Positions 2,407 through 58,715 of a stretch of 64,000 bases of DNA are shown here, piece after piece (within the stretch, counting starts at the first letter, position 1; every line of letters begins with the position of its first letter). A program made the position numbers and the translations under genes. The notes under the pieces are model-generated. The model was not told the origin of the DNA, made no database searches, and worked only from the letters and a program-made list of their open reading frames with translations. Source of the DNA: Malacoraja senta (Eukaryota); NCBI GenBank assembly GCA_038087875.1, contig CM075988.1, forward strand, positions 18,292,001 to 18,356,000, given 5' to 3'.

Positions 2407-2835
2407 CCACTGTGAGCAGCTGCCTGAAGATGGAGCCACTGACAGTCCCACAGCTGGAGAATGGAGCAGCAGAAATCAGTGCACACTTATGGCCCTGTCC
2501 CACTTACGTGCCCTTGGCACGCAAATTACGCGACATCATCGTCGCGTTGAGGCGCACGGGCATCGTCTGTCCCACTGAGAAGCGCGGAGGGGTATGGAGT
2601 TGTGCGCGGTATCGCACGGCGCTCCGAAATTCTGTAGCGAACAAAATCTTCGCGGGCCACCGGCCTGTCGCGTAACTGACGGCCAAAGTGGGACAGGCCC
2701 AAGACCCTGGTGCGACGCAACGTCTCACCTCCAACAGCAGCAGAAGCAGGCAAACGATCGCCGTGCTCGGCCTGGGGCTCATGGCCGTTGCGGTCCGGAT
2801 CCGCCCCCACTTCTACTCCCAGAGCGGGGCCAAGA

Positions 2836-3227: not shown

Positions 3228-3254
3228 AGAGCGGGGCCAAGAAAATTGAAGATA

Positions 3255-3436
3255 AACACAAAATGCAGGAGTAACTCAGCGGGACCGGCAGCATCTCTGG
3301 AGAGAAGCAATGGGTGACGTTTCGGGTCAAAACCCTTCTTTCAGACTGAAGAAGAGTCTCGACACGAAACATCACCCATTGTTTGTCTCCAGAGATGCTG
3401 CCGGTCCCGCTGAGTTACTCCAGCATTTTGTGTCCA
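3255..3436. mobile_element. Fold-back pair of Penelope-terminal modules
   Basis: Two inverted ~90-bp copies joined at ttcag-a-ctgaag. Confidence 0.75.
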
Positions 3437-4009
3437 TCTTCAAATGACGTCACGCGCTCCAGACGGCTGTGCGGACGCATGAAGTCGCGCGTGACCTTCG
3501 CGGGACCGTTGCGTAATTAGCGTGCCAAGGACACGTAGGTGGGACAGGGGCTTTAGTTATAACCCAGGCAGCCATTCGATAGTGCAGACACTTCCCATCA
3601 AGCTCAAACAAAGATTTATCTTTCATCTGCAATAACAATTTTTAGCCATTGGTGATCTCAGGCACTCTGCAGGTGAGACGATACTTGGGTTTTTTTATTG
3701 ACCCAGAATCGGATGTGAAAGCGAATCTCCCACAGCACGGTGTTCTGTTAGCGGGCGTGATTGGCGGGCACTGTGCAGTTGGCTTAGTTTAATCTGTCAG
3801 AACCTAAACATCAACGTCTTGTTCATTTATCACCACAACTTGTTGTGTAGTTATGGGGAAGGCAAGGCCAAGCTTTAGTTCACATGTACATAATTGGTGG
3901 ACACTGCCTGGTCCATCAAGGGGTACTGTCCTCCCCACCATCGAAGAGATAGTTGTTAGTTTAGTTTTGTTTAGTTGGTGAGGCTCCATGTCAACATTAA
4001 TGACACCAG

Positions 4010-8743: not shown

Positions 8744-9465
8744 CTGGTGAGGTATCAGTGATAGAGGCAGAGATGTCTTCATGTTATAATGAAGATAGGC
8801 AACAAGTGCTGGAGTAGCTCGGCATGACAAGCAGCATCTCTGGAGAACATGGATAGGTGACGTTTCGGGACGGGACCTTTCTTCAGTCGGATTGTAGTTG
8901 GGGGTGAGGGGGGGGGGTAGGTGATGGGGGGTGCAGGAAGTGAGAAAGTAAAAAGTGGACAAATCGGGGCTGGCAACAGGTGACCTCAGGCAAGGAGGTT
9001 TCCTGATTGACTAATTGTTGGTTAGAGAGGGTGTTCATCCCACTTTATGTCCCCTTGTTGCCTCCCTCAGGTGGGGTTCTTCCAGACTGAAGGGTTTTCC
9101 ATGGTGTTACCACAGGGAGAGAGACTCCCCTGCCAGCGAAGGTACACTAATGGACATTAAACCAGCCACCGCTTCAGCTTTCAGCAGCTGGGAGTGAAAG
9201 GCAAAGAGCTGGAGGAACTCAGCGGGTCAAGCAGCATCTGCGGTGGCGGGCAGACAGGCGATGTTTCACGTTGGGACCTCTCTATAGAATCGAAGAAAGG
9301 ACCCTGCTTGGATTGTTGACAGCTGACTATGAAATGGGTCCCGGCCTGAAGCGCCACCTGTCCATTTACCGCCACAGCTCCACCAGCACTTTGCTTTCAC
9401 TCAGGGTTCCAGCATCTGCAGTCTCCCGAAGAATCTCCATTCTCCAGCGCCGGGAGGTCAGTCAC

Positions 9466-10300: not shown

Positions 10301-10743
10301 TAAGAGCCAGTTAATATGTAGGTACCTGTTTTTTGCACACAGAGTTATTTATTGTAAGTTGGCATATTGAGTTAGGTAGTTAGATAATCCTTTGGCTTTG
10401 GGCTTGGCTTTCTTAGTTGAGTGCTTATCCTGCAGCTATAGCACAAGTATTTTGTGTTTTATTTGTAATCTGATCAAATTGGACAGCATGGAAAACAAAG
10501 CTTTTCACTGTACATGTGACAGTAATAAATGTAACCCAGAACACACGTCACCTGGTTCTTGCATCCCTCACCTGAAAAGGTTACTTTGGGTAAAGGACTC
10601 TGTGCATTCGCTCTGTTTATTCCCCTCATGATTTTATACACCTCTATAAGATCACCCCTCATCTTCCTGCGCTCTATGGACACAGCTGACAAAACCCTCA
10701 TGGTTGATCTCGGCATAAAGCACAAAGTACGGGAGGGCATAAT

Positions 10744-10835
10744 CAGTCTGAAGAAGGGTCTCGACCCGAAACGTCGCCCATTCCTCTCCAGAGATGCTGC
10801 CTCACCCGCTGAGTTACTCCAGCATTTTGTGTTCT
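10744..10835 (+). ncRNA. Penelope-terminal module with intact minimal hammerhead ribozyme core
   Basis: CTGAAGA-A-GGGTC-TC-GACCC-GAAAC-GTC at 10748-10775. Confidence 0.6.
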
Positions 10836-11295
10836 ATTTGGAAGGCGTTTGGAAGGGTACACGGTTAGGAAAGGTTTAGTGGGAATTAGGCCAAATACAG
10901 TTAAGTTTGACTTGGTAGACACAAAATGCTGGATTAGCTCAGTCGGTCAGGCAGCATCTCCAGAGAGAAGGAATGGGTCTCGACCCGAAATGTCACCAAT
11001 TCCTTCTCTCCAGAGATGCTGCCTGACCCGCTGAGTTACTCCAGCATTTTGCGTCTACCTTTGATTTAAACCAGCATCTGCAGTTCTTTCTTCCACATAA
11101 ACACATCTCTTGTTAGTTGATAATCCAAAATTGAGTCGGTAAACTGGATGATTTTGCATGAATCTTCACGAGAAGGTGATATTTTGGTCGATCCCGCGAA
11201 GCCCCTTGGCGTCTGTTGCTAAATCAAAGATGCTTCACTAATCTGAGCAGGCAGCAGACCCGGCGGAGATTCATTTGGAAGAAACGTCTCGCATC

Positions 11296-11320
11296 TCAGG
11301 CCGGAATGATTACTTTCACC
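11296..11320 (-). CDS. Candidate terminal exon (RVKVIIPA*; an alternative frame runs to 11219)
   Basis: Acceptor ctgtcctctctgtcag; phase-compatible with 14022-14092. Confidence 0.25.
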
Positions 11321-11348
11321 CTGACAGAGAGGACAGATAGGCTGCATC

Positions 11349-11801
11349 AGCCAGTGTCCAGTTGCAGTAGCCAGTGTCCAGAGTAGAGTAGCCAGTGGCC
11401 AGATGCAGTAGCCAGTGTCCAGAGTGTAGCCAGTGGCTACATGCAGTAGCCAGTGTCCAGAGTGTATCCAGTGTCCAGAGTGGAGTAGCCAGCGTCCAAA
11501 GTGGAGTAGCCAGTATACTGATGCAGTAGCCAGTGTCCAGAATGGAGTAGCCAGGGTCCAGATGCAGTAGCCAGTATCCAGAGTGGAGTAGCCAGCGTCC
11601 AAAGTGGAGTAGCCAGTATATTGATGCAGTAGCCAGTGTCCAGAGTGGAGTAGCCAGTGTCCAGATGCAGTAGCCAGTGTCCAGATGCAGTAGCCAGTGT
11701 CCAGATGCAGTAGCCAGTGTCCAGATGCAGTAGCCAGCATCCAGATGCAGTAGCCAGTGTCCAGTGTACAGTAGCCAGTGTCCAGATGCAGTAGCCAGTG
11801 T
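11349..11801. repeat. 20-22 bp minisatellite
   Basis: Unit cagtagccagtgtccagatg and variants, ~22 copies. Confidence 0.95.
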
Positions 11802-12304
11802 ACATAGAACATGGAACAGTGCAGCACAGGAATGGGCCCTTCGGCCCACAATGCTTGTGCTGAACACAATGGCGTTAAATTCATCTCGTCTGCCTGTACA
11901 TGATCCATATCCCACTATTTCCTGCACTTTCACGTGCGTATCTAAAAGCTTCGTAAACGGCGCTATCGTATCTGCCTCCACCACCACCACCCCTCGCAAT
12001 GCGGCTCCAGGACCCCACCATTCTCTGCCCCGTACATCTCCATTACATTTCCCCCTCTCAACCTATTGCTGCGCCCTCTAACGTTGGATATCTCCACCCT
12101 GGGGATGTACGTCCGCACGCTGCTCACTGGAGGAAAACTGCTCCCATTTCCTTTGTTAGAACAATCCCAGTGCTCCGGCCAGCCAGACAGACAGACAGCG
12201 TGAAAGAATATCCGTGCGACAGCCTGCCGAGATACCGCATTGTTGCCTTTCACAAAGATTCTGCTGCTGATGAGAATGATACTTACAATTCCAGTTTGAG
12301 AGAT

Positions 12305-15774: not shown

Positions 15775-16303
15775 TGCTGCACTCCCTCAATAGCAAGAAT
15801 GTCCTTCCTCAAATTTGGGGACCAAAACTGCACAGAATACTCCAGGTGTGGTCTCACTAGGGCCCTGTGCAACTGTAGAAGGACCTCTTTGCTCCTATAC
15901 TCACTTCTCTTGTTATGAAAGCCAACATGCCATTCGCTTTCTTCACTGCCTTCTGTACCTGCATGCTTACTTTCAGTGACTGATGAACAAGGACCCCCAG
16001 ATCTCGTTGTACCTCCCCTTTTCTTAACTTGACACCATTCATATAATAATCTGCATCCTTTTCTTGACACCAAAGTGGATAACCTCACATTTATCCACAT
16101 TAAACTGCATCTGCCATGCATCTGCCCACTCACCCAACCTGTCCAAGTCACCGTGCATCCTCATAGCATCCTCCTCACAGTTCACACTGCCAACCAGCTT
16201 TGTGTCATCTGCAAATTTGCTAATGTTACCTTTAATCCCTTCATCTAAATCATGAATGTATATTGTAAATAGCTGCGGTCCCAGCACCGAGCCTTGCGGT
16301 ACC
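15775..16303 (-). mobile_element. CR1 LINE internal RT fragment, frameshifted
   Basis: [32 protein letters not shown] spread over several frames. Confidence 0.9.
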
Positions 16304-16820
16304 CGCAGGAAGCTGTCTCAGAAAAACCCTGCATTATTTAATGGTTTACAGAGCCGCAGATTAAAGGCAGTAATAACCACACTTCAAAGTGTTTTAGTTA
16401 TTCTGCCAGAACTTGAAATCACCAGCATTCCACATTTTATAGCCAGCCACATGCTGAAACGTCACCCATTCCTTCTCTCCAAAGATGCTGCCTGTCCACT
16501 GAGTTACCCCAGCTTTTTGTGTCTCTCTGCTGTGGTGAAACTTGGCTCGCTTTTAGAGAGGCCTCCAGCCACATAACCCATCGCCATCCCCGTCCATCTG
16601 CTTTGGGTGGGGTTGTTTCACCCTTCCCCAGTGCCGGGGAGGGATCAGTTATACCCACCACCACACCAGATGCTGGAGTAACTCAGCGGGACAGCCAGCA
16701 TCTCTGGAGAGAAGGAACGGGAAGGAACTGAGTCAGGGGAGAGGGAGACAGAGAGATATGGAGGGGTAAGGTGTGAAAACGACAGATCAAAACAAGATGT
16801 GATAAGGAAATGTAGAATGG

Positions 16821-17424
16821 ACAATGCAACACTTGTCCCTTCACTTCCCCCCTCCACTCCATTCCAGGACCCAAGCAGTCGTTCCAGGTGCGACAGAGGT
16901 TCACCTGCATCTCCTCCAACCTCATCTATTGCATTCGCTGCTCTAGATGCCAGCTGATCTACATCGGTGAGACCAAGCGGAGGCTTGGCGATCGTTTCGC
17001 CGAACACCTCCGGTCGGTCCGCAATAACCAACCTGAACTCCCGGTGGCTCAGCACTTCAACTCCCCCTCCCATTCCGTATCTGACCTCTCTGTCCTGGGT
17101 CTCCTCCATGGCCACAGCGAGCAACACCGTAAATTGGAGGAAATGCACCTCATATTCCGCTTGGGCAGTCTACACCCTGGTGGCCTGAACGTTGAATTCT
17201 CCCAATTCTGCTAGCCCTGGCTGTCCCCTCCCCTTCATCAGCCAGCTGGTTGTCTCCTCCCCTCCCCCAACCCTCGGGCTCCTCCTCCTCCTTTTCCTTT
17301 TTTCCTTTCTTCTCCCCACCCCCTATCAGTCTGAAGAAGGGTTTCGGCCCGAAACGTTACCTATTTCCTTCGCTCCATAGATGCTGCTGCACCCGCTGAG
17401 TTTCTCCAGCATTTTTGTGTACCT
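16821..17424 (+). mobile_element. Penelope-like element 3' fragment (GIY-YIG endonuclease plus terminal module)
   Basis: ORF 16888-17214 NLIYCIRC..YIGETKRRLGDRFAEH..HFN..PGGLN; TSD TAGAATGG at 16813-16820 and 17425-17432; hammerhead-like core at 17331-17358. Confidence 0.9.
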
Positions 17425-17737
17425 TAGAATGGTTCATTGTTGGCTGAGGGGAAGGTGACAACGCGGCAAGCAATCAGTGATATTTAATCAGGACAGTGAA
17501 ACTAGTCGGAGAACTGGGGTGGGGAAGGGGCGGAGAGAGAGGGAAAGCAAGGGTTACTTGAAGTTAGAGGTCAATATTCATGCCTCTGGGTTGTAAGCTG
17601 CCACACCAGTGACAGACTGGCCCTCTCAGCTTCACAGTGACCGCACACAGAGCAAAGTTAGTCTATCACTCCGCATTATAGGGGCAATGGACAGGGCTCA
17701 CAGTTCACAAACCATTCGGAGACAGGATACAGATTTA

Positions 17738-26536: not shown

Positions 26537-27348
26537 GGGGTACCTTTCACCCCACCAGCCATCACATACAACAAGTAATCCTCCGTCAGTTTCGCCACCT
26601 CCAACGTTATCCCACCACTCGCCACATCTTCCCATCTCCCCCCATGTCTACCTTCCGCAAAGACCGCTCCCTCCGTAACTCCCTTGTCAATTCTTCCCTT
26701 CCCTCCCCTCCCGTACCACCCCCTCCCCGGGCACTTTCCCTTGCAACCGCAAGAGATGCAACACTTGTCCCTTCACCTCCCCCCTCGACTCCATTCAAGG
26801 ACCCAAGCAGTCGTTCCAGGTGCGACAGAGGTTCACCTGCATCTCCTCACACCTCATCTATTGCATCCGCTGCTCTAGATGCCAGCTGATCTACATCGGT
26901 GAGACCAAGCGGAGGCTTGGCGATCGTTTCGCCGAACACCTCCGGTCGGTCCGCAATAACCAACCTGACCTCCCGATGGCTCAGCACTTCAACTCCCCCT
27001 CCCATTCCGTATCTGACCTCTCTGTCCTGGGTCTCCTCCATGGCCAGAGCGAGCAACACCGGAAATTGGAGGAACAGCACCTCATATTCCGCTTGGGGAG
27101 TCTGCATCCTGGGGGCATGAACATTGAATTCTCCCAATTTTGCTAGCCCTTGCTGTCTCCTCCCCTTCCTCAGCCCTCGGGCTGTCACCTCCCATCCCTC
27201 AGCCCTCGGGCTCCTCCTCTGCCTTTTTCCTTTCTTCTCCCCACCCCCTATCAGTCTGAAGAAGGGTTTCGGCCCGAAACGTTGCCTATTTCCTTCGCTC
27301 CATAGATGCTGCTGCACCCGCTGAGTTTCTCCAGCATTTTTGTGTACC
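26537..27348 (+). mobile_element. Penelope-like element 3' fragment (GIY-YIG)
   Basis: ORF 26820-27146; 13-bp TSD ATGGGGTACTGAT at 26524-26536 and 27349-27361 within a CR1 3' end; hammerhead-like core at 27256-27283. Confidence 0.92.
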
Positions 27349-27584
27349 ATGGGGTACTGATTGGGGATGATCAGCCATGATCACATTGAATGGCGGTGCT
27401 GGCTTGAAGGGCCGAATGGCCTACTCCTGCACCTATTGTATAAATTATTGGATTTCACATTTCATCTCACATTTGACAATGAAATTCTCCTGCCCTCGGT
27501 GGCTGAGGGGATGGACAAGGTGTGTCTGAGTCCGAGCTCAGCTTTGTCCACTGGGTTTAGCCACAGAGTTCCCCACCCTGTGCA

Positions 27585-27805
27585 GGAAGCAACTGCAGAT
27601 GCTGGTTTAACCCAAAGATAGGCACAAAATGCTGGAGCAACTCAGCGGGACAGGCAGCATCTCTGGAGAGAAGGAATGGGTGACGTTTCGTGTCGAAACC
27701 TTTCTTCAGTCTGCAGAAGGGTCTCGACCCGAAAAGGTCATGTATTCCTTTCCTTCAGAGATCTCGCTGACCCACTGAGTTACTCCAGCATTTGGTATCT
27801 GTCTT
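27585..27805. mobile_element. Fold-back pair of Penelope-terminal modules
   Basis: Inverted copies joined at cttcag-t-ctgcag. Confidence 0.7.
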
Positions 27806-28677
27806 CCATTTATTTCTTGACAGATACCGCCTGACCTGCTCAATATTCCCAGAATTTTCCGATATTATAGGAGAAATCCTATCAGAATGAATTGAAAGTT
27901 GACGTCCTCTGATTTCACACCAGAAATCGGAGAAGTTAGTATTGAATTGGGTCTGAGAGGGAGTGTTCTGAGGAGATGTGGAGCTGATTGCGTGGAAACG
28001 TCGCCCATTCCTTCTCTCCAGAGATGCAGTCCATCTTGGGTTCACCACCCTCCTCGCTGCCCACTGAGGCTGCAGAGGCACGGGAGGGTCACAGCCCAGG
28101 GCAAACGCTTGCTAACAATCCGAGAGGGTTGGGAATTGCTCACTGACGTTATGTTTTTTGCACTGAGTTGCTGGAACCACTGCTCCAGGCAGCATTTCTC
28201 AGCTTTCTGCTCAGAGGAGTCATCTCATGGAGGTGTACATCTCCACACTGCTGGAGGAACTCAGCGGGTCAGGCAGCCTCTGCGGAGGGAGTGGATAGAC
28301 AGCGTGGCAGGTCGGGACCCTTCCACAGACCGTGCCTGACCTTCAGCCAATGATAAATGAAGGTTCTCGACCCAAAACATCATCTGTCCATTCTCCCCCC
28401 CCCCCCACACACACACACACACAGATGCCACCAAACCCTCTGAGTTCTTCCAGCACTTTGTGTTTTCCTTGGAAGAGATTCCATTGTCTTGCCTCATCAT
28501 TCTTCCCCCAGTGGACTGTGAACAACGTGGTTCCAAGCATTGCCTAATGGCTGTCACGAGCAAAACAGGAAACAATGACTGTGGCCATTGTTACCCACAG
28601 ATTTACAGTATGATACACCGATCTCCAAATCTCAGAAAGAACCTCACTGAGGTTTAGGGATCTTCAAAGGCAACCTG

Positions 28678-28855
28678 GACACAAAGTGCTGGAGTAACTC
28701 AGCAGGTCAGGCATCATCTCTGGAGAACACGGATAGGTGACGTTTCAGGTTGGGACCCTTCTTCAGACACAAAGTGCTGGAGTAACTCAGCGGGTCAGGC
28801 ATCAACTCTGGAGAACACGGATAGGTGACGTTTCGGGACAGGACCCTTCTTCGGT
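28678..28855 (-). repeat. Tandem dimer (88-bp period) of the Penelope-terminal module
   Basis: gacacaaagtgctggagtaactcagc starts at 28678 and 28766. Confidence 0.85.
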
Positions 28856-29699
28856 CTCAGGAGTTTCAGTGAAGAAGCGAAGATGAAGAATAACGATGCC
28901 CGTGAGCCTGTCCACGTCAGCTGCTCGTGCAGGCTGGCTGAACACCGGCCGAAGATGTACGAGGCTGCCTTCGGATGGCTTGGCCGTTGGCCAAGTTGAA
29001 TGGTTCCTCTTGGCTGTTAAAGAAGGAACTGCAGATGCTGGAAAATCGAAGGCACACAAGAATGCTGGAGAAACTCAGCGGGTGCAGCAGCATCTATGGA
29101 GCGAAGGAAATAGGCAACGTTTTGGGCCGAAACCCTTCTTCAGACCTCTGACGTTCCCCTTGGCTTCCCGGTTAGCGCACCGTGCGGCAGCAGGGATAAC
29201 CGAATGACTGGCGCAGCCCTGATATCAGCTTGTGTCCAGACATGTTGCCAGTTGCTAATCTTTGTTAGTTTAATGTGGTTTGGCATTTGGCGAGTGTTTA
29301 AAATGAATTCCCCGCAGCTGTGCTAAGCAACCACAGTCTCCCTGCCAAGCAAGGTTTGAGTAACCAAGTGTGATGAATTAACGAGTTTTTCTGGATTAAT
29401 GAGCTAAGATTCCACAGATATGTGATGTGAATACTTTATTTGTAAAAGCCCAACGGTGTGTGAGTTGTACTGGTCTTAAACAAATTTGCTCGGGCCGCCT
29501 GGCTATTCGAGGAATCCATGTTGAAGTGATGTTGGGTTGGTGTTGGTCTTTCAGGGTTCTATCTGCTTCTCCATCTACACCAAGGGAAACAAGTGCTGCT
29601 CTCAGATGGCCGCTTCGAATCTTCAAAGGCAAGCATCCCTTCCAGATGTACACAGACCTTGCTGAGGCCGAGAGCTCTTCCCGGAGGCTGTGGAGAACT

Positions 29700-29998: not shown

Positions 29999-30689
29999 CT
30001 GGGAGCCGAGACTGGATCATGGGTGACACCAGCACCTCCTTCCCTTGGGGACCCTGTGGCTGCCAGGGGCGGGTCTCATTGTCCACAAAGGGCTTGAGCT
30101 GGTCCCAAGGGTTTTGCTTCATGCTCCAGGCTCACAGGCACGGGCTTTTCTTTGCATGTTGGATCTGTGGCCACTTTGTGGAGACACGAGAATCTGCAGA
30201 TGTTGGAATCCTGAGCTAAAAAGAGGGAGTGTGTCAGAATGAACCGCAGGTGCTGGTTTAACCCGAAGGTAGACACAAAAATCTGGAGTAACTCAGCGGG
30301 ACAGGCAGCATCTCTGGAGAGAAGGAATATGGGTGACGTTTTGGGTCGAGACCCTTCTTCAGAAAAGGAGGGAGACTGCCAGAGAGTCTCAGCAGCAAAG
30401 GCAGAATCTGCCCCGATACCTCCTCCCCCACACCCATCCACAGACCCCAGCCGTCCTTGCAGGTGAGGCAGAGGTCCACATGTGCCCCCTCTAACTCTCA
30501 TCTACTGCAGTCGGTGTTGCCGATGTGGCATCCTCTGTACATCGGCAAGGCCAAGAGTAGAATAGCTGACTATTTCGCCGAACACTTACGTGAGGTTAAA
30601 ACTCGGATCATTCCTCAGTGAGGAAAATTAATGCTGTGGTTTAACAGATTCTTACTATTATTTTTTATTTTTTAGCAGATTCTTACTTT

Positions 30690-35400: not shown

Positions 35401-36069
35401 TACAATTATAAACTGTTGTGCAGAGGAACAAGGACACTGTTCTTCGACAACCAAGTCTGCTCGCTGACTTTCATGAAAGATTAACTGGGAAAAAAACAGT
35501 TCCGAGTTTGACTACATCATCATTCACTCTAAGGGAAAACAGTGCAGGCCAAGATAGCGAAACCCCCTGAACCTCAGGGCAAGTCATTTGTCTGAGGCTC
35601 TCCGTCATTCCTGAGTCAGTCACATCTGTCAGGTCTTGCTGAGACAGACTCACCTCCTTCCTGTACCTGCTTCAACCTCTACCTTGCATTTCCTGTGATT
35701 AAACCAGCTTTGGCAACTTCACAAAGCTCACGAACCTGTACTAACCGGCTGTGACCTGCTTGCCGTGGAATAGTTTAGCTCCATTTCAAACCAGAGACAC
35801 AAGAGACCGCAGATGTTAAACAAAAAACAAAGAGCTGGAGGAGCTCAGCGGGTCAGGCAGCATCTGTGGAGGGAATGGACAGATGACATTTTGGTCGGTC
35901 CCTTCTTCAGACTGATGAAATAGGGGGGGGGGGGGGGGGAGAAAGCTGGAAGAGGGAGGTGGGGCTGGGGAAAGCCTAGCAAGTGATAGGTGGATACAGG
36001 TGGGTGGAGAGTGGTGATACACCATGTAATGTGTGCTTTCCTGGTCAGTTATACTGTAGGAGACTTTCC

Positions 36070-43617: not shown

Positions 43618-46312
43618 TAACTCTGGCGAGTTGCTTTTAATCAATTTGTATGTCACTCTGCTTTGCCAAAAGGCTGACATCAAAGTAGAATGGACAATTT
43701 CCAGCCACTTTTGGAGGTAATATGAAAACAACAGTAATCTTGTTCCGTCAATAATCTGAACCTATGAACAGACTACCTACTTAGCAGTGTTATAAAAATT
43801 GGTGGTTTCGTTCTACTAAAGTTGCGGCACATTCGGGGAAGCCAAACACTCCCAATTCTCAAAGGTTGACATTGATATAATGGTAGTCCAACAACAATCT
43901 GCTGGAGGCACCAGGAACTGCAGGTGCTGGCATCTGGAGTAAAACACACAAAGTGCTGGAGGACTCGGCGGGTCAGGCAGCATCTGTGGATGGGAAAGTT
44001 TGACCATTCTCTCCCATGCGCAGTTGCAGACTGAGTGAGTCCCTCAGCTCATTGTGAGCGGCATTCACCAGCAGCTTCCCGGGGGGGGGGGGGGGGGGGG
44101 CAAACAGGATGGGCAACAATTGCTGGCAACAACATCCTGTGTCCCCTCAAATGAATACACTAACAGCATGGTCCACAGGTAACAACACGCACACGCATCC
44201 CACATGCCTCTACACACAAAGCAACACTGACCTGTAGAGAATCAATGAACATGCAGCAATTTTTAATTAAACCTCAGAGCGTTACCATCAGGAGTGATCA
44301 GTTAACTGGCCCGACCTGCGTCTGGTCTTGAAGCAGTTCCTAACCGCGACAGTTCCACTTACCTAGAAAACAAAGGATGAGACATTGATTATAAAATACA
44401 TTCGGTGGGAGATGCAGCATCCTTCATCAGTACACAAGAGTTAATTCTAATGATACAGAAAGTTCAGAACATCAAGTAGGTTTAAAACCCATCTGGGATC
44501 TGGAACTGAACCATTGAGTAGGACAGCACGGAGACAGGCCCTTCGGCCCACCTTGTCCATGCCGACCATGGCATCTCTCCATCCCAATCCCATTTGCCCA
44601 AATTATCTCGCTTCTTTCCTGTCCATGATCCTGTCCAAATGCCGTATAAATGTTGTTACTGCGCCCGCTTCCACCCCCCCCGCTGGCAGCTCGGTCCATA
44701 TAATCACCATCCTTTGTGAGAAAAACATACTCCTCAGATCTCCTTTAAACTTCTCCCCTCTCTGTGTAAATCTGCGCCTTCTGGTTCTAGACTCCCCTGC
44801 TCTGGAAGAAAGACTCTGATGATCAATCCTCTCCAAGGCCCCAATAATGTTATAAACCTTCATAAGGTCACACCACCCTGGCCACGCTCTCATTTCACTC
44901 CTGCCATTGGGACGGTATAGGTGCCTGAAAACTGCAATGTAAGGAGCAGCTTCTTCCCTGCAATCATCAGGCTATTAAACACTACAACCTCCAAATAGGC
45001 TCTGAACTATATAGACTTTGGAAAATTATTTTTGCCCCATTTACAGTAGTCTCACCTGCCTCCGTTTGGCCCATATCCATCCAAACCTTTCTCTACAATG
45101 TGCCTGTCCAAGTGTGTTTTAACATAATGTCACCAAAGCATAACGTCCTAAATCTTATACTCAGACCCTTAGCCTATGAAGCAGCTTCGCAGAACATACA
45201 ATTTTCACCAAATTATGAACTTGCGCTCCTAGGTCCAGCTGTTACACTGTGCTGGGCTCCCTGCCATTTATGCCTCGTTGGTATGTGGCATCCCAGAGGT
45301 ACTGTACTTCCTCACATTGTTCACATTAAATACCACCAGTCCACGCTCTGAGTGACCTTGCACCCATCTATGTCCGCCCATATCCTTTCACAACCTTCTT
45401 CACTATTTCCCTGGGTAGAGGATTCTAGAACTAGAGGGAAGACACAAAATGCTGGAGTATCTCAGCGGGACGGGCAGCATCTCTGGAGAGAAGGAATGGG
45501 TGATGTTTCGGGTCGAGACAAACCACAATTTGTGTCTACCTTCAATTTAAACCAGCATCTGCAGTTCTTTCCTTACACACCAAAACTAGAGGGCATAGGC
45601 TTAAAGTGAGAGGGGAGAGATTTAAGTGGGATCTGAAGGGCAACCTTTTCACTCAGAGGGTAGTCCGTATCTGGAATGTGCTACCAGAGAAAGCTATCGA
45701 AGCAGATACAATTATGACTTTTAAAAGACATTTGGACAGATATATGGATAGGACTGGTCTGGAGGGACATGGGCTAAATGCAGACAAATGGGACTAGCCC
45801 AAAATGGACAAGGTGGGCTGAAGGGTCTGATTTCATGTTGTGCAGCTCTAATGACCTGTGACTATCTACTAGTTGAGTTTAGTTCATTGTGACATGTACT
45901 GAGGTACAGTGAAAAGCTTTTGTTGCATGCTAACCAGTCAGCGGAAAGACCGTACATGATTGCAATCGAGCCATCCACACTCCCACATCCACACTATTCC
46001 ACCAATGTTTGTGTCATCAGAAACCCCAGTAATTTGTCCACCGACACTCTTATCCGTCATGTCATGTCATGTCATGACAAACAACAACAGGCCAGCGCCG
46101 ACCCCTTACGGCACACATTTGGATAGTGTTTAGCTTTTGCATCATGCGGTAAAAATACTTTCACAAACATATCTGAAACATCACGGTGAGAATTCCTCCT
46201 GCGTCATCGGGCCCGACTGTTCCTGTGTACACAGAGTGTGTACACGTAAAAACAAGTGGAATCTCTGCATCTTCTCACTACTAATGCAGCATGGTGGCGC
46301 AGGGTAACTATT

Positions 46313-48840: not shown

Positions 48841-51800
48841 TATGGAGATGAGGAGGAATTTCTTTAGCCAGAGGGTGGTGAATCTGTGGAATTCATTGCC
48901 ACAGATGGCAGTGGAGGCCAAGTCATCGGGTATTTTTAAAGCACAAATTGATTAATAAGATTGTTAAAGGTTTCGGGAGAAGGCAGGAGAATGTGATTGG
49001 GGAGAGAAAGATAGATCAGCTATTACTGAATGGTAGAGCAGACTCGATGGGCCGAATACTGTTCCTTTGTCTTTCGGTCATCATCAAGGTAAAAGAGATA
49101 CTCACTTACATTTACCAACCGGAAACATTCACCATCTCTCTCCACAGTTGCTGCTTGACCTGCTGAGTCTTTCTGGCACCGATTTGATTTTGGATTTCCA
49201 ACACTTGGCTCCAATGTGTTCTACATTTCAGGTGTCCATGAGGATTACAGATAAACCAGGGTACTCCATCAGCTAATTGCACTCTCTCTCAACGATGTAC
49301 TTTAATCAAATACAATCAGCAATGCACTAGACAATCGATTACTTCTGTTGCTTTGTTGAGCCCCAGAGGTGTTCTGGCTTTTACTACAGCGAGCAGGTTT
49401 TAGCGTGGAGTGCCTGTCTCCACTCAGGGGACCGATACACTCGAGAGCCACAGAGGGGAGGGAGGTTAAAGCAGCGACTGGATTAGCCTGCAATTGTTAA
49501 GCCTCTTGATAGCATTTTGAGTGTCAATGCGACTGAAAGCTCTGAACTGACGGTGAACAGTGGACATTTATTGAAGACTGTACGTACGGGAGTGGTAGAC
49601 ACTGCCTGCTCCGTCACGGGTACTGACCTCCCCACCATCGAAGGATCTACAGGAGGCGCTGCCTCAACAAGCAGCCAGCTTCATCAAAGAACATCACCAC
49701 CCTGGCCCCGGCTGAACACCTCTGATGGACAAACCCAAGTCAGATGCTGTATTCCCCCTCAATACTGGGACACCAGCCTATATCTGCGATGACTTCATTG
49801 ATTAATTTATAGATACAGCATGGAAACTGGCCCTTCGGCCCACCGTGCCTAGACCGACCGTCAATCACCCGATATCTCAACGTTATTATATGTTTCTCCA
49901 CCATTCCCCACACACTGGGGACAACTTAAGAGAGGCCAATTCAACTTACAAACACCAGCACGTCTTTGGGGTGTGGGAGGAAACTGGAGCAGCTGGAGGA
50001 AACCCATGTGGTCACAGGGAGGACATGTAAACTTCACACTGACTGGAGCCGAGGTCAGGATCGAACCCGGGTCTCGGGTGCGGTGAGGCAGAAGCTCTAG
50101 CAGAGGAGTAGGACTTGAACTCGTAATCTTCAGACATTGGTCAGAGTGTGCAGGTACACATGCCGGGTGCACTCTTCAAGACTATTTTGGGCGGCACGGT
50201 GGCACAGCGGTGGAGTTGTCGGGTTCGATCCTGACTATGGGTGCTGTTTGTACGTTCTCCCCGTGACCATGTGGGTTTTCTCCAGGTGCTCCGGTTTCTC
50301 CGGTTTCCTCCCACACTCCAAACATGTACAAGCTTGTAAGTTAATTGTAGGTTAATTGGCTGGGTAAAATGGTACGTTGTAATTGTAAGTTGTCCCTAGT
50401 GTGTGTGGTGTGCGGGGACACTGGCCAGTGCGACGAAGGGCCTGTTCCCGTGCTGTATCTCTTAAACGAAACAAAACGAAACTATTCATCCAAACACATA
50501 ACTATTAAATTGTTGGAATCTCCCAGCAACTCTTCGACTGTGTTAAAGTTATATAACACCAACCAACCAAGGGCAAATGGATGGTGTGGCATGTTGGTCG
50601 GCATTATCGAGTTGGCCGAAGGGTCTGTTTCTGTGCTGTACAGCGCGATGGCTCTAACCTTGAGTCTGACTTGTTCACTGTGGGACAGCTAGGTTGGAGT
50701 AACACGCCTCCAGCTACAGGTTCTGCCTGACTACAAGTTGAAAGAAATTAAAAGAAAGGTTACAAACTATTATTTCCTAAAGATAACAAGGGGCCGTACT
50801 GATTACTTTTCCCATTCAAAGAACCTGCAACCCGACTGAGCTGTGATATAATAGTTGAGAAGAACTCAATCTGAACTGGGGATTAGATTACAGATCACTA
50901 CTTTGTAATTATTACCGGATATTCATTCATTTCCACATATTGTACCACTTCAATAATTAGCATGTTAAAGCAGAATTTAAAAAACTGCAATGATGCATGT
51001 GTCACTGAACTGAATGTGACAAACCAGTCAATATGCACAGATGCAAATCCGGTATATTTATTGCAGCTCACAATAATGCTAATTCTTCCATTGAACTTCC
51101 TTTTTGTATCTATATTGAGCACAGCAAAGAATCAGTAATGACCTCGGTCTACAGAATCCCTTTAGCACTAGGTCTCAGCTGGGAAATGTAACTCTGCCAC
51201 TCGCAGCTTCTAACGTTGTTGGCGAGGCCAAACTTGGATTATGGTGTTTGGTTTTGGTCAGCATAATAATGGGAAAGATGCCATTAGGCTGGAAGGTGCG
51301 CAGAGAAGATTTACGAGGATGTTGCCAGGACTCAAGGGCCTCAGCTATAGGGAGGGGTTGGGCAGGCTAGGTAGGGCCTTCCGAGAATTTCTGTAAAATT
51401 CTAAATAGCTTTGAACCCCTAAAATGGCTGGGGTTGTGAGCCCTATACAAGCAACGCTGGAAGTGGTTGAGGCAGGGACAATAACGACATTTAAAAGACT
51501 GGTTGATGTCAGCATGGGGGAGTTGGGTCGAAGGGCCTGTTTCCATGCTGTATATAATCCTATAACGCACTCCTGTCGGGAGAAACATCCATGGTGTAGG
51601 AAGGAAGTGCAGATGCTGGTTAAAACCGAAGATAGACACAAAATAACTCAGCGGGTCAGGCAGCATCTCTGGAGCAAAGGAATAGGTGACGTTTCGGATC
51701 GAGACCCTTCTTCAGACGTCCATGGTGTATGAAGAGGAACCGAGAGGCATACATCCTCATGTCAGGAATAGGTAGTTGTTGGCCAGTCAGTCCGAACTCC

Positions 51801-54214
51801 TGCTCCATTGTTGAACAGAGGCGTTTTAAAAATTAACATATTGCAAGTTTCCTGCACTAAATGAACCTCCTTGCTCTCTAAATCTCCAAAACTCTATCAA
51901 ACTTTTATATGGAATACACTCTCACAGAGTGTAAGCCTACATCTCCCTGAGGAAGAGAACTCAGTCATAGTCATACAGCAGGGAAACAGGCCCTTCGGCC
52001 CAACTCATCCATGCTGACCAAATCCAAATTAATCCCATTTGCTTACATTTGGCCCATATCCCCCAAATCTTTCCAAACTATGTACCTGTCTAAGTATCCA
52101 TTGAATGCTGTTATCGTCCTTGCCTCAACTATCTGCTCCGGCAGCTCGTTCCATAAATGTGAAAACATTGTCCCCCATCTCTGCTTATCATTTCTGTACT
52201 GAATGGCTAACCCTTTATTCTGAGCTGGACACCCCTGGCTCTGGACACTGAGCGAGAGTCCCCACATCTAACCTGCCCATCCTAAAGCCAAGCCACAAAC
52301 AATATCCAATAATATCACATCTTGTCTGCTCATGAAAAGCTGAATCCCTCCCCCCCCAAACCCCCCCCTCCCCCCCCCACCATTGACTCTTTAAAGAAAC
52401 AAAGATCGGTCTGATTCAGATCTGATAGCTGGAGGTACATCATACACTGTGGAAACATGCCCTTCGGCCCAACTTGCCCACACCGACCCACATATCCCAT
52501 CTACACTAGTCCAACCTGCCTGCGTTTGCCTACCTATGTCCTCTGGTTCTCAATTCCCCTACTCTGGGCAAGAGACTCTGTGCGCCTACCCGATCTATTC
52601 CTTTCATGATTCTGTACGCCTCTATAACATCAGCCCTCATCCTCCTGCGCTCCAAGCAATATAGTCCTAGCCTGCTCAACCTCTCCCTTTGGCTCAGGCC
52701 CCTCCTGAGTCCAGGCAACGTCCTCGTAAATCTTCTCTGTGCCCTTCCCAGCTCAACAACATCTTTCCTATGTGTAGGAAGAAACTAGTTTGAAGAAGGG
52801 TCTCGACCCTCTGTCCAACGATGCTGCCTGTCCTGCTGAGTTACTCCAGCTTTTTGTGAACATCTTTCCTATAATAGAGTGAGCAAAACTAACCAAAACA
52901 TCTGCCCAGAGAAGTCACTAAAGAGTAAAGCCTGTGACTACGCTTGTGTTCTCAGTCGAGAATTATAAATCAGTAAATAATTGCGTGAATCCAGCTGGAA
53001 ATAATATGCCCGCTTTGTTTAATGCATCAAAACTAAAGAGAGAGATTGATGGGGTGGGGAATTTGATTCTAAAGTCAAATCAGTACATTGAATATATCAA
53101 CTTTTTATCAACTTGCTGTCTATGCAAAACCGGCATTTAGCTCACCAAAACCCACATCTTAACCCATCAAGATTGATGCAACCACAAAGATAGCTCATTG
53201 ACATTAACTTAGAAACATAGAAAATAGGTGCAGTAGACCATTCAGCCCTTCGAACCATTCATTATGATCATGGCTGATCATCCAAAAACAGTACCCCGTT
53301 CCTGCATTCTCCCCATATCATTTGATTAGCCCTAAGAGCTATGTATACCTAACTCTCTCTTGATTACTTTCTTGGTAGATTGAGGAGATACAGTATGTTG
53401 GTGGGGTCAAGGAAAGAGCCATCACGTCGCGGCCCTGTTTCCGCCAATCTTTCCACCACTACGCACAAGAAGCGCAAGAAGCGACCAGACAGACCCCATT
53501 GTATGCAGATGCCGAGTAATGTGTTCAGCTCTGGTTGAACAACTAATCTTGTGTGTGGACTCGATAAGAAGTATGTTGGCGGGAATGCTGGTGAACTTCT
53601 ACAGGTGCGTGGTAGAGAGAACACCGACTGGTGATGTCGCAGCTGTTTCGGCAACTCAAGTGTTCAGGGATGAAGGGGACTGCAGAGAGTGATGGTCCTC
53701 CGGTCCATCACGGGTACTGAATGGAAGTTGCTGCCAGTTTGACTGGGATTCTCAGTGAAGGCTATGAATTTCCAGCTCTTTGCCCATCACAATCAGGTAG
53801 TGGCGACAGGAAGTAAAAAACGTTCAAGTCACAATATGCTGGAGTGTCTCAGCGGGTCAGGCAGCCTCTATGGAGGGATGGCCAGGCAACTTTTCTTCAT
53901 TCTGAAGAAAGGTCCCGACCCAAAACATCACCCGCCCATTCCATCCACAAATGATAACTTGACATATTAGTACAGGTGAACTTGATTAGTACAGGTGTCA
54001 GAGGTTATGGGGAGAAGGCAGGAGAATGGGGTGGGGAGGGAGAGATAGATCAGCCATGATTGAATGGCGGAGTAGACATGATGGGCTGAATTGTCTAATT
54101 ATACTCCTATTCCTTATCACCTTATGACCGGCTAAGTTTCTCCAGTATTTTGTGTTTTGCTTACGATTCCTGCATCCGCAGTTCCTTTTGTCTCCAAAAA
54201 ACATCAAGAATCTT

Positions 54215-54495: not shown

Positions 54496-55091
54496 AATAT
54501 TTCCCAAGAGTGTATTAAGTCGTGGGAAGGTGGCCCAGGCACCCTCAACCACCCCTCAACCACTCCCACACTAATATTTCACATTCATGTATACACCCAA
54601 AAGACATTAGAGTGAATGTAGATAATTAACAAAGATCAACAGCATCTTTATGCTGGTTAATGAAGTGCTTAACCCAATTAGAGCAACTCATTGTCTTCAC
54701 ACACAAGTGATTAGCCTCTGCAGCTGCATCAGAATTTTTTGCTCATTTGCACAATTTATGACCCTCTGATTCAAACTGTTCCTCGTTTGTGGATGGCTCT
54801 GTAAAACCACCAGATGATTGTAGAAGGATGGTCCCGGCCCGAAAACGTCACCCATCCCTTTTCTCCAGAGATGCTGCCTGACCCGCTGGGCTGCTCCAGC
54901 ACTTTGTGTCTATCTTCAGGTGATTGTAGGAGGTTTGGTTTGTAAGTTTGTGGATGGCTCACAAAGTTGTTATTATTGTTGTGGACAGCAAGTAAACGCT
55001 GTCTCCGGCTACAGTAGGGCATCGGTCCGATGGAAAGTTGGGCAGAGTGTTGGCAGATGGAAGTTAAGTGTGACGTTGGCATCAGTCTGAA

Positions 55092-56132: not shown

Positions 56133-57079
56133 TTGAATGGACTCCTTCTGCGGAGTAGATTTTCTATGAGGAGTAACAGGCCATCATTCCCACAGACCCA
56201 GTATATAACCACAGTGATCCTCACCCATCACAGCACCTTTTAGGTGTCGTCACTGTTGTAAGGCAGGATGCACAGCGGCACTCTGCAGTCAACTGAAGGG
56301 CAACGCTTGGCTTTTACACCAGGGGCCCTCCCTGTGTTAGCACTAAATATAGCCAGGGATCTCTGGGAGAAAAGAGAGGCCTCGCGTAAATGTTTCATCC
56401 CAAGGTGATGTGTCTAAAGATACGGAACCACAGTTGGAAGCTAATTATATTTGGTCGTGGAGTTAAACCCTGCACATTATCAACAGCACAGTCTCAGTTT
56501 CACCTGCAAGGAGATGCAGGATTTCTCTCAGAAAGCTGCCTCGTCCAAAATAAAGTGAGTAGAACGGAACTGCAGATGCTAATAAACTCCGAAGAACAGC
56601 ACAGAGTTCTGGAGTAACTCAGCAGGTCAGGTAGCATCTCTGGAAAAAAATGGATGGGTAGCGTTTCGGGTTTGAGGACCCAAAACATCACCCATCCTTG
56701 TCCTCCAGAGATGTTGCTGACCGGCTGAGTTACTCCAGCACGTTGTATCTATCTTCGTCCAAAACAAACTTTGTTCGCTGATTAAACTGCTTGCCAAAAC
56801 CCGCCTCAGTGTGGCACAACGACGTGAAAGTGTAGACACCGTGTCAACATCGTGCATTCTATTTGTAACTAAACTATCGAACTCCGCGTGGTTAGTGGGC
56901 CAGTGAGCCAGCATTTCTCACACACACGAGCTGCCTAGCAAAGCCAGCGATTTATCCACAGCATTGGTCTACAGTAGATGGATGGATTGTTGGAGAAATG
57001 CCACATTAAAATGTTCAGTCCCACCACAAACTCAATCATGTGCACACAGATAGAGAGAGAGAGAGAGATAGCAAGCCAA

Positions 57080-57450
57080 GACGCTAAGTGCTGCAGTAAC
57101 CCGGAAGGTCAGGCAGCACCTGTGGAAAACATGGTTAGGTGACGAAAGATAGACACAAAGTGCTGGAGTAACTCAGCGGGTAGACAAAAACGCTGGAGAA
57201 ACTCAGCGGGTGAGGCAGCATCTATGGAGCGAAGGAAATAGGCGACGTTTCGGGTCGAGACCCTTCTTCAGACTTAGCAGGTCAGGCAGCATCTCTGGAT
57301 AGGTAATGGATAGGTGATGCTTCGGGCCGGGACGCTTCTGCAAACCCGAAACATCACCCATCTACGTACTCCAGAGATGCTGCCTGACCCGCTGAGTTAC
57401 TCCAACACGTTGCGTCTTTTTACTGCAAACCAGCAGCTGCAGTTCCTTGG
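57080..57450. mobile_element. Cluster of nested and inverted Penelope-terminal modules
   Basis: At least four partial modules; intact hammerhead-like core on the minus strand at 57244-57271. Confidence 0.7.
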
Positions 57451-57769
57451 GTCTCCGATAGAGAAGAGAGCAAATTGTTGTTTAGAAAGGTAATGGTTCA
57501 GGTTGTGTGTTATTGTTACAAAGATCATACAACAGCACTGCACAGGAACAGGCCCTTCGGCCCACAATGTCCATGCCGTACATGCTCCAAGATAAAATGG
57601 AGGGGTGCTGGGCAAGTCTCTTACACAAAGAGTGGTGGGGGCCTGGAACGCGCTGCCAGGGGTCATGATGGAGGCAAATACGATAGTGCTATTTAAGAGG
57701 CTTGTAGATAGGCACATGGAAGTGCAGGGAATAGTAGGATATGGATGTGTAGGAAAGAACTCCATATGC

Positions 57770-58715
57770 TGGACACAAAATGCTGGAGTAACTCAGCGGG
57801 TTAGGCAGCATCTCTGGAGTGAAAGAATGGGTGACGTTTCAGGTCGAGGCTCTTCTTCAGGGGAGCGGGCGGGACAGAGATAAAATGTAGTCAGAGACAG
57901 TAAGACTGGTGGGAGAACTGGGAAGGGGGAGGGGATGGAGAGAGAGGGAAAGCAAGGGCTATTTGAAGTTAGAGAAGTCAATGTTCATACCACTGGGGTG
58001 GAAGTTACCCACGTGAAATATGAGGTGCTGTTCCTCCAATTTGCGCTGTGCCTCACTCTGACAATGGAGGATGCCCAGGACAGAAAGGCCAGATTGGGAA
58101 TGGGAGGGGGAGTTAAAGTGCTGAGCAACCGGGAGATCAGGTAGGTTAAGACGGACTGAGCGGAGGTGTTCAGCAAAACGATCGCCGAGCCTGCGCTTGG
58201 TCTTGCCGAACGACAGGAGTTGACACCTGGAACAGCTGTCACAGTAGATGAGGTTGGAGGAGGTGCAAGTGAACCTCTGCCTCATCTGGAAAGACTGTCG
58301 GGGTCCTTGGATGGAGTCGAGGGGGGAGGTAAAGGGACAGGTGGTGAATCTCCTGCGGTTGCAGGGAAAAGTACCTGGGGAGGGGGTGGTTTGGGTGGGA
58401 AGGGACGAGTTGACCAGGGAGTTGCGGAGGGAACGGTCTCTGCGGAAAGCAGAAAGGGGTGGAGATGGGAAGATGTGGCCAGTAGTGGGATCCTGTTGGA
58501 GGTGGCGAAAATGTCGGAGGATTATATGCTGCATGCGACGGCTGATGGGGTGGAAGGTGAGGACAAGGGGGACCCTGTCCTTGTTACGAATGGGGGGAGG
58601 GGGATGGGGAGCAAGAGCGGAGCTGCGGGATATTGAGGAGACCCTAGTGAGAGCCTCATCTATAATGGAAGAGGGGAAACCCCCGTTTCCTAAAGAATGA
58701 GGACATCTCCGCCAA
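57770..58715 (-). mobile_element. Penelope-like element (RT C-terminal region, GIY-YIG, terminal module)
   Basis: ORF 57959-58534 PPLSAFRRDRSLRNSLV..FTCTSSNLIYC..RRLGDRFAEH..PSGMN; YIG degenerated to SFG. Confidence 0.9.

What the first reader, a model, noticed from the sequence alone, without database searches (positions are those of the whole stretch)
10744..10835. High-copy minimal hammerhead-ribozyme module spreading independently of Penelope ORFs
Seen: CTGAAGA-A-[stem II hairpin]-GAAAC-GTH recurs on both strands, e.g. + 10748, 17331, 27256 and - ~20775, ~28740, 41106, 51688, 57244. Stem II varies (GGGTC-TC-GACCC, GGGTT-TC-GGCCC, GGGT-CCCA-ACCT) but stays mostly pairable. At 17331 and 27256 it lies just 3' of a GIY-YIG ORF; most copies have no ORF. 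Established: CUGANGA/GAAA/NUH is the hammerhead core, Penelope-like elements carry minimal type I hammerheads in their pseudo-LTRs, and a palindromic AC-GU helix III is thought to need dimerisation. Inference: a Penelope-mobilised, ribozyme-bearing non-autonomous family that may put self-cleaving sites into host transcripts. Helix I looks weak (2 bp plus an internal loop), and many copies have core mutations.
Basis: partly seen in the sequence, partly recalled or inferred. Interest (0 to 1): 0.72.

Follow-up and report, generated by a model that had tools for sequence, protein, structure and literature searches.

The report
Penelope retrotransposon stubs carrying minimal hammerheads
A ~100-135-base repeat covering about 7% of this cartilaginous-fish window is the ribozyme-bearing end of a known kind of jumping gene (Penelope-like), inserted as short stubs that mostly look unable to cut RNA; the only odd point is that so many stubs stop right at the ribozyme's 5' edge.

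Summary
The motif is real and commoner than reported: 52 arms in about 34 clusters, 7% of the window, none in the reversed window. It is the pseudo-LTR end of Neptune-type Penelope-like elements (PLEs) and fits the published minimal type I hammerhead. ORF-less copies bear ordinary PLE insertion marks: 13 head-to-head pairs, a one-sided tail, 8-15 bp target duplications. In a tree they mix with ORF/UTR-linked copies, so a separately evolving family is not needed. Cervera and de la Pena (2014) already described such genome-wide single copies as probable truncated PLEs. Cleavage of host RNA is unsupported: 6 of 27 copies keep every feature, monomers misfold in prediction, core CpGs decay like others, and stem II covariation does not beat shuffles. 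One unexplained feature: 27 of 52 arms start within 12 nt at the hammerhead's 5' edge (about 2 expected), echoed in two DNA runs. This suggests a fixed template end or stop site. The scan holds 225 hammerhead+Penelope notes on other genomes, none on this sequence.

The parts
10742..10835 (+). The finding's copy: solo pLTR stub, short 3' end, keeps 6 nt (ATCAGT) of the element upstream of the core; 3-nt deletion in the linker; no target duplication found
10746..10777 (+). Minimal type I hammerhead: helix I 10746-47 with 10776-77 (G-C, U.G), CUGAAGA 10748-54, extra A 10755, stem II 10756-59 with 10764-67, GAAA 10768-71, palindromic ACGU 10771-74, predicted cut after C10775
   Evidence: sequence; all features intact
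10914..11097 (.). Neighbouring head-to-head pair: minus arm 10914-10978 (short end) joined through GGGT/ACCC microhomology to plus arm 10975-11097 (with tail, lacks CUGANGA)
26542..27348 (+). 5'-truncated PLE, subfamily B: GIY-YIG ORF end (to 27146), pyrimidine-rich 3' UTR, intact hammerhead at 27256, target duplication of about 15-17 bp (26524-26540 / 27349-27365)
16822..17424 (+). 5'-truncated PLE, subfamily B, hammerhead at 17331, 8-bp target duplication; inserted into an older PLE copy
16663..17600 (-). Older main-subfamily PLE end (ORF stop plus UTR at 17425-17600, rest of UTR plus module at 16663-16821, hammerhead deleted), split by the 16822-17424 insertion
   Evidence: blastn 82.5% over 120 nt to 58004-57885; continuity across the duplication is my inference
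57746..58705 (-).
8786..8990 (-). Subfamily C module with pyrimidine-rich upstream tract (UTR inferred; no ORF found)
35801..36000 (-). Subfamily D (oldest) module with pyrimidine-rich upstream tract (UTR inferred; no ORF found)
27578..27812 (.). Head-to-head pair joined at the CAG-T-CTG quasi-palindrome; tail on the minus arm only
3243..3447 (.). Head-to-head pair joined at the same quasi-palindrome; no tail on either arm
45437..45579 (.). Head-to-head unit (module plus inverted tail piece) flanked by a target duplication of about 10 bp
56559..56762 (.). Head-to-head unit joined at the 3' arm of stem II, tail on one arm, target duplication of about 12 bp
29015..29147 (-). Solo subfamily-B module with tail and 13-bp target duplication; 5% from the ORF-linked 17327 copy; G12 mutated
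30230..30363 (-). Solo module with tail and about 11-bp target duplication; G12 mutated
51593..51719 (-). Solo module with tail and target duplication; all hammerhead features intact
54823..54918 (+). Solo module, core damaged, target duplication
52768..52868 (+). Module with internal deletion preceded by a short inverted tail piece; 12-bp target duplication
28676..28857 (-). Direct tandem of two modules (89-nt period): the only clear dimer candidate; first copy has U4C, second is intact
57079..57450 (.). Nested cluster: intact module 57275- inserted into the minus arm of a head-to-head pair, plus partial direct copies

Best explanation
The module is the 3' pseudo-LTR end of Neptune-type Penelope-like retrotransposons. 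The element's RT/GIY-YIG protein nicks a target and starts reverse transcription inside its own uncleaved RNA, at one of two sites about 95-105 and 125-138 nt downstream of the hammerhead's 5' edge (inferred from the two 3' end classes and from the anole element studied in vitro). Most cDNAs end soon afterwards, at the hammerhead's 5' edge or at stem II, and often join an inverted second cDNA. This gives ORF-less stubs and head-to-head palindromes with target duplications. The stubs are by-products of four successive subfamilies rather than a lineage of their own, and they decay neutrally. The hammerhead is kept by selection on the master elements and is probably silent in nearly all stubs. 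Shown: anatomy, duplications, mixing with UTR-linked copies, clustered ends. Inferred: the RT steps. Open: why ends pile up at the 5' edge. My odds are run-off to the RNA's 5' end 40%, fold-back, stalling before the C-rich tract or endonuclease cutting 45%, splice-acceptor effect 15%.
For: ORF remnants directly upstream of three modules; best homologues are shark proteins at 56-57% identity, and several hits carry RT and GIY-YIG domains. 13 of 15 close opposite-strand neighbours are head-to-head, p=0.007. In 8 of 13 pairs one arm has the tail, in none both. 9 of 26 units have flanking duplications at p<=0.013 against random pairs, 7 of them ORF-less. The 6 UTR-linked copies fall in all four sequence groups: 5 label changes against a shuffled mean of 5.7, with 128 of 500 shuffles as low. 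Only 1 of 52 non-UTR arms starts near the cut site, so the templates were uncleaved, as in PMC11167929. TG/CA decay is 38% and 33% at the two core CpGs, against 24% and 27% at two non-core CpGs. The same structures are described as typical of PLEs in PMC8557442 and PMC3846280, and PMC4209133 calls such single motifs probable truncated PLEs.
Against: Plain random 5' truncation does not predict 27 of 52 starts in one 12-nt window (about 2 expected). A fixed start is also what a dedicated non-autonomous master would give. The tree is weak (3 of 37 inner branches well supported, 95 columns, 12 of 52 arms left out). For most solos the nearest relative is another solo, as the numbers would give anyway. 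The finding's own copy and 57275- look intermediate between A and B and have no UTR-linked member in this window. Two of the six 'UTR-linked' copies rest on pyrimidine content only. Five duplications were seen by eye before the scripted test, and I chose the unit ends. The one-sided tail pattern is not significant alone (p=0.21). No full-length element or whole genome was available.
Confidence: 0.7

Rival explanations
1. Dedicated non-autonomous family: short master copies with their own start are transcribed and mobilised in trans by PLE proteins, as SINEs are by LINEs.
For: Sharp common 5' boundary. About 10 arms per ORF remnant in the window (52 vs 5). RNA depth on the module is 4,800 (B) and 15,000-18,000 (A) per strand against at most about 940 on the ORF and about 45 on the UTR. 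The finding's A/B-intermediate type has no UTR-linked copy here. Non-autonomous PLE derivatives exist in other taxa.
Against: Each of four sequence groups holds both solo and UTR-linked copies with the same boundary, which would need four separate masters. Solo 29147- is 5% from an ORF-linked copy. ARAGORN finds no tRNA gene in the window. No long tandem arrays of the retrozyme kind: 4 direct adjacencies, one clean dimer. 96% of laid RNA reads run on into unlike sequence.
Confidence: 0.18
2. Solo pLTRs left by recombination between the two pLTRs of longer insertions, like solo LTRs.
For: Solos keep target duplications, as recombination products would; solo pLTRs by recombination or deletion were proposed in PMC3846280.
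Against: It does not produce the head-to-head pairs (26 of 52 arms). It only moves the question of the fixed 5' end to the upstream pLTR. About 100-nt repeats are short substrates. None of the ORF remnants here has an upstream direct module.
Confidence: 0.07
3. Many copies are live ribozymes that cut host transcripts, alone or as dimers between distant copies, and are under host selection.
For: 6 of 27 aligned copies, the finding's among them, keep every feature. The module is abundant in poly(A) RNA of a related species on both strands. One direct tandem exists (28676-28857).
Against: The hammerhead fold is 5-8.5 kcal/mol above the predicted minimum in 4 of 4 copies. Stem II pair probability is at most 0.003 in 4 of 5, and helix I is about 0 in 5 of 5. 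Palindromic units fold as long hairpins. Core CpGs decay at least as fast as others. Covariation does not exceed shuffles (201 of 500 reach it). Published minimal PLE hammerheads showed no monomer cleavage and low dimer cleavage, or needed the PLE protein. No significant strand bias (30 minus, 22 plus, p=0.33), though the host gene's strand is unknown.
Confidence: 0.05

Closest known systems
[quoted passage not shown]
   Same: Core boxes, extra nucleotide between A9 and 10.1, G10.1-C11.1 pair, palindromic 15.2-16.2 with no loop 3, short helix I, position just 3' of the ORF, mostly single dispersed copies, some close pairs on opposite strands.
   Different: Stem II is 4 bp here (7-8 bp in Schistosoma). 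Helix I is 2 bp. The parts I read do not mention cartilaginous fish. Local density here is very high (paper: about 4,000 in coelacanth, 9,000 in Xenopus, by a different search method). No fixed 5' boundary of the single copies is reported in what I read.
Neptune-clade EN+ Penelope-like elements and their insertion structures (Craig et al. 2021, PMC8557442; Arkhipova et al. 2013, PMC3846280)
   Same: [quoted passage not shown]
   Different: Here the stubs are mostly just the last 100-135 nt. RT phylogeny was not tested, so Neptune versus Nematis rests on host range and motif.
Poseidon element of Anolis (PAc; Frangieh et al. 2024, PMC11167929)
   Same: Two 3' ends about 30-40 nt apart at a similar distance (about 100-140 nt) from the hammerhead; insertions made from uncleaved RNA; both strands primed would give head-to-head arms.
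   Different: Different clade. In PAc the ORF starts at stem II; there is no ATG at that place here. Nothing was tested biochemically here.
Non-LTR retrozymes of animals (PMC7229834; Li, Clavereau and Pollet 2026 preprint 10.64898/2026.07.22.740005)
   Same: Type I hammerhead, no protein, probable PLE origin and mobilisation, dispersed monomers.
   Different: Retrozymes are tandem arrays with, in the 2020 paper, canonical efficient hammerheads and circular RNAs. Here copies are single or inverted, with minimal hammerheads and only one clean direct dimer.

Membership tests
Minimal type I hammerhead of PLEs | CUGANGA, GAAA and NUH boxes in type I order | tested here: met
   12 of 27 aligned copies have all 11 core positions, the finding's copy included
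Minimal type I hammerhead of PLEs | Extra nucleotide after A9, G10.1-C11.1 pair, palindromic 15.2-16.2 | tested here: met
   A at 10755; G10756-C10767; ACGU
Minimal type I hammerhead of PLEs | Stem II supported by compensatory change | tested here: inconclusive
   78.7% of cells paired in stem II, but one two-sided change only; whole-structure covariation 0.161 vs shuffled 0.158; RNAalifold predicts no pairs
Minimal type I hammerhead of PLEs | Match to a curated Rfam hammerhead model | tested here: not met
   No hammerhead family among the 6 matches at E<=1; whether Rfam models this minimal form was not checked
Minimal type I hammerhead of PLEs | Self-cleavage as dimer or with protein help | not testable with these tools
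   needs an in vitro assay
EN+ Penelope-like element | GIY-YIG endonuclease at the ORF's C-terminus, upstream of the pLTR | tested here: met
   PF01541 above cut-off for 26679-27146 and 16816-17214; 57959-58765 had no Pfam hit but is 57% identical to a shark homologue and aligns to the same region
EN+ Penelope-like element | RT domain in the same ORF | tested here: inconclusive
   Window copies are 5'-truncated before the RT; 5 of 13 homologues carry PF00078
EN+ Penelope-like element | Inverted 5' copy, optional one-sided tail, target duplication | tested here: met
   13 head-to-head pairs, tail on at most one arm, 9 of 26 units with duplications
Neptune clade | CX2-5CxxC linker before GIY-YIG plus internal cysteine pair | tested here: met
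   CNRKRCNTC and YCIRCSRC..YIGET in the 26679-27146 translation; definition
Neptune clade | RT phylogeny | not tested
   no RT in the window
Non-LTR retrozyme | Head-to-tail tandem arrays with a complete hammerhead in at least two consecutive units | tested here: not met
   one clean direct dimer, first core mutated; definition
Non-LTR retrozyme | Circular RNA | not testable with these tools
   only oligo-dT libraries were laid
Independent non-autonomous family | Solo copies form lineages without ORF-linked members | tested here: inconclusive
   UTR-linked copies are spread over all four groups, which is against it, but the tree is weak and the sample small

The most novel reading that the evidence does not exclude
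The stubs are run-off ('strong-stop-like') cDNAs. The PLE transcript begins at the hammerhead's 5' edge, where TCAGTCT matches both published initiator consensuses, so the ribozyme sequence doubles as the element's core promoter. RT primed at the internal site in the leader copy then reaches the RNA's end after 100-135 nt and integrates. This would explain the fixed boundary, the solo excess and how pseudo-LTRs form, and would make these genomes a very large natural record of the PLE transposition intermediate. Some stubs could then act as secondary masters. Against it: initiator-like 7-mers occur about 10 times per kb here, the same CAG follows a polypyrimidine tract like a splice acceptor, three non-palindromic copies keep 2-3 nt beyond the putative +1 A, and no RNA start pile-up was seen. 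I did not find this model in searches.
Probability: 0.3. Interest if true: 0.62.

Novelty: new member of a known kind. Interest (0 to 1): 0.34.

Why it matters
As a ribozyme finding it is ordinary: PLE minimal hammerheads and their dispersed single copies have been in print since 2014. Two things keep some value. First, the density: about one cluster per 2 kb and 6 fully intact motifs in 64 kb. If typical (an extrapolation I could not test), these genomes would rank among the richest in hammerhead motifs, giving a large set for testing selection on intronic strand. Second, the fixed 5' boundary of the stubs bears on the still unresolved PLE transposition cycle, and can be tested with existing assemblies and 5'-end RNA data.

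Tried and rejected
No whole genome is held for this window, so all copy statistics are window-level. Rfam: no hammerhead match; the mir-624, MIR831 and similar hits are inverted-repeat folds. Motif scans of viral contigs and metagenome contigs found nothing. No RNA holder was listed for the stretch; RNA came only from runs of a related species, about 5 in 100 of each read. No place where many molecules begin or end was reported (threshold: a fifth of depth), and no splice-like joint at the CAG before the core was among the 15 joints shown (2849 not shown). Fragmented oligo-dT libraries are poorly suited to this, so neither blank is used as evidence. Contig depths are not copy numbers. Host gene: 140 of 231 candidate frames from unique DNA were scanned against Pfam; three weak DUF hits below cut-off, no exon identified, so sense/antisense bias could not be tested. 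A shared spliced first exon upstream of solos: not seen in the window nor in loose-end consensus (agreement 0.34-0.35). Hammerhead cleavage as the source of the 5' end: rejected, since ends lie upstream of the cut site. Coding of the module: an ATG frame is open in subfamily B but stopped in A (read by eye); not pursued. No target duplication found for the finding's own copy. Lunse et al. (PMC5785218) is not held; I saw only its citation. Supplements (for example the species and alignment lists of PMC4209133 and the 2026 preprint) were not read and may include a cartilaginous-fish example. Earlier scan notes: none by sequence or place; the eight listed concern other systems and were not used.

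Full report
Observation. The sequence at 10748-10775 reads CTGAAGA-A-GGGT-CTCG-ACCC-GAAAC-GTC. A profile from 11 window copies finds 52 arms, and none in the reversed window. They form 33-34 clusters covering 7.2% of the window. Rfam gives no hammerhead match at E<=1.

Host and element. The best protein homologues of the ORF remnant are from two named sharks (57% and 56% identity); 5 of the 13 hits carry an RT domain and 4 a GIY-YIG domain. The window is therefore most likely a cartilaginous fish (inference). tblastn finds ORF remnants at 26542-27140 (+), 16822-17208 (+), 58681-57962 (-) and an old one at 30397-30606 (+); blastn adds an ORF end at 17482-17597 (-). The remnants carry a CX4CxxC linker and the internal cysteine pair, which passages of PMC8557442 assign to Neptune and Nematis. 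The third, at 57860 (-), belongs to the main subfamily and is 8% from the finding's copy. A fourth, at 16663-17600 (-), was split by the B insertion and has lost its hammerhead. Two more (8889-, 35914-) follow pyrimidine-rich tracts that I read as UTR; no ORF was found for them.

Anatomy of the ORF-less copies. 26 of 52 arms are in 13 head-to-head pairs, against 2 tail-to-tail and 4 direct adjacencies. Junctions fall mostly at the CAG-T-CTG quasi-palindrome or in the palindromic stem II. 3' ends form two classes, about model 91-113 and 125-138; 16 arms have the tail, and in 8 of 13 pairs exactly one arm has it, never both (p=0.21 alone). 9 of 26 units have flanking duplications at p<=0.013 against 2000 random pairs; 7 are ORF-less. 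I chose the unit ends, and had seen five duplications by eye first. The finding's own copy has none. Passages of PMC8557442 and PMC3846280 describe these same marks as typical of PLEs. PMC11167929 (parts 1-2 of 4 read) explains the tail by two internal RT start sites, shows both strands cleaved and extended, and finds uncleaved RNA the main template. PMC4209133 (parts 1-2 of 4) states that most minimal hammerheads are single elements probably related to truncated PLEs, some in close opposite-strand pairs.

Independent family? In a tree of the 40 of 52 arms that cover model 41-85, the six UTR-linked copies fall in all four groups (5 changes; shuffled mean 5.7; 128 of 500 shuffles as low). The solo 29147- sits with the ORF-linked B copies at 100/98 support. 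Support is otherwise poor (3 of 37 branches starred). The finding's copy shares diagnostic bases with 57275- and lies between A and B, with no UTR-linked member here. A separate lineage is thus not needed but not excluded. The retrozyme definition (tandem units each with a complete hammerhead; preprint parts 1-3 of 5 read; passages of PMC7229834) is not met: the one clean tandem has a mutated first core.

The odd feature. 27 of 52 arms start within model 4-15 without UTR, 12 at 16-31, 1 at 32-45 and 6 beyond 45; 6 are UTR-linked. A uniform stop rate fitted to the downstream 85 nt predicts about 2 in that window (arms are not independent, so the p-value of 2e-27 is descriptive only). Some starts at 12-15 are old copies trimmed by the local alignment. 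Upstream DNA of these arms is not pyrimidine-rich and not shared, apart from inverted arms. Non-UTR copies keep 0-6 nt of the element's upstream ATCAGT. Two DNA runs agree: loose ends at 27709, the first core base of the minus arm, are among the six best-supported in each (987 and 1213 records), with a consensus matching three upstream letters and then none (agreement 0.34-0.35). That site is partly selected by a private mismatch of the window copy, and 4785 loose ends were not shown. In two RNA runs of a related species, depth steps from about 45 on the B UTR to about 4,800 on the B module, and reaches 15,000-18,000 per strand on the A module, against at most about 940 on the ORF. A-type ORF reads are under-counted at 82% likeness. 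Candidate causes: the RNA's 5' end (TCAGTCT fits YYANWYY and TCAKTY, passages of PMC1475891, but such motifs are common); fold-back at the quasi-palindrome (self-priming proposed in PMC3846280); stalling before the C-rich tract; endonuclease cutting; or a splice acceptor, as the Drosophila virilis intron ends at the 5' side of helix I (promoter passages of PMC2377424). I cannot separate these.

Is the ribozyme alive? It has the four traits given for PLE minimal hammerheads. 12 of 27 aligned copies keep the core and 6 keep all features. Core identity is 0.90, linker 0.73, downstream blocks 0.93 and 0.89, so the whole module, not the core alone, is conserved. Core CpGs have decayed in 38% and 33% of copies, non-core ones in 24% and 27%: no sign of protection after insertion. 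Stem II shows one two-sided change, and covariation does not beat shuffles. Predicted monomers pair the purine-rich core with the downstream linker instead, and palindromic units form long hairpins. Nearest-neighbour folding ignores tertiary contacts and protein help, so this lowers but does not exclude activity. The copies do ride in transcripts on both strands, 96% of reads running on into unlike sequence. No host exon was found, so strand selection was not testable.

Literature status. Searches found no paper on this family in cartilaginous fish or on a fixed 5' boundary of PLE stubs. The library lacks most subscription journals, repeat databases were not searchable, Lunse et al. was not available, and supplements were not read. 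Passages only were seen of PMC6155905, PMC6765202, PMC8969392 and PMC8455134. The names HER1 and HE1 used below are recalled, from no call.

Verdict. A real, very dense, but known kind of feature: PLE pseudo-LTR stubs with minimal hammerheads, most likely inert by-products of transposition. The fixed 5' boundary is the part worth following. Interest 0.34.

Noticed in passing
window 16663-17600: A young PLE copy inserted into the 3' UTR of an older PLE in the opposite orientation, with an 8-bp duplication; 57275- likewise sits inside another module. PLEs here often land in each other.
   Followed up: partly
window 26500-27440: The 27252 PLE copy is inserted into the tail of a CR1-type LINE (HER1-like, name recalled); 16 blastn hits of that tail in the window, with RT-tail frames at 17835-18770, 32591-33646, 37989-38510 and 63314-63871.
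   Followed up: partly
window 29703-29980 and elsewhere: A tRNA-like SINE (HE1-like, name recalled) gives 28 blastn hits in the window; ARAGORN calls no tRNA. About 52% of the window is self-repeated.
   Followed up: no
window 30397-30606 (+): An old, diverged GIY-YIG remnant (38% identity) lies 34 nt from the 5' end of the solo 30363- module in opposite orientation, outside that module's target duplication; no module follows it.
   Followed up: partly
protein P0001, C-terminus: The annotated shark protein reads through into its UTR and ends in SLMKGLRPKRQLL, which is compatible with translation across the same hammerhead; this suggests the motif sits at the same place in that shark's element. 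Inference from amino acids only.
   Followed up: no
module positions 50-87, e.g. window 10789-10825: A downstream block is as conserved across all four subfamilies as the hammerhead core (0.89-0.93) and includes a small predicted hairpin; a candidate binding or RT-start signal for the PLE protein.
   Followed up: partly
window 3243-3447, 10914-11097, 27578-27812: Head-to-head units fold into 90-100 bp near-perfect hairpins (down to -151 kcal/mol); if transcribed they are likely dsRNA substrates for editing or small-RNA pathways, and they explain the Rfam microRNA-like hits.
   Followed up: no
window 30700-30990: A G+C-rich, CpG-rich short tandem repeat of roughly 70-80 nt units, unidentified.
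   Followed up: no
window 11316-11914: A tandem repeat giving long low-complexity frames on the minus strand, just downstream of the finding; not examined.
   Followed up: no
window 2579-3097 (+) and 36554-36973 (+): Frames that look like ends of other LINE families (recalled resemblance only; no Pfam hit).
   Followed up: no
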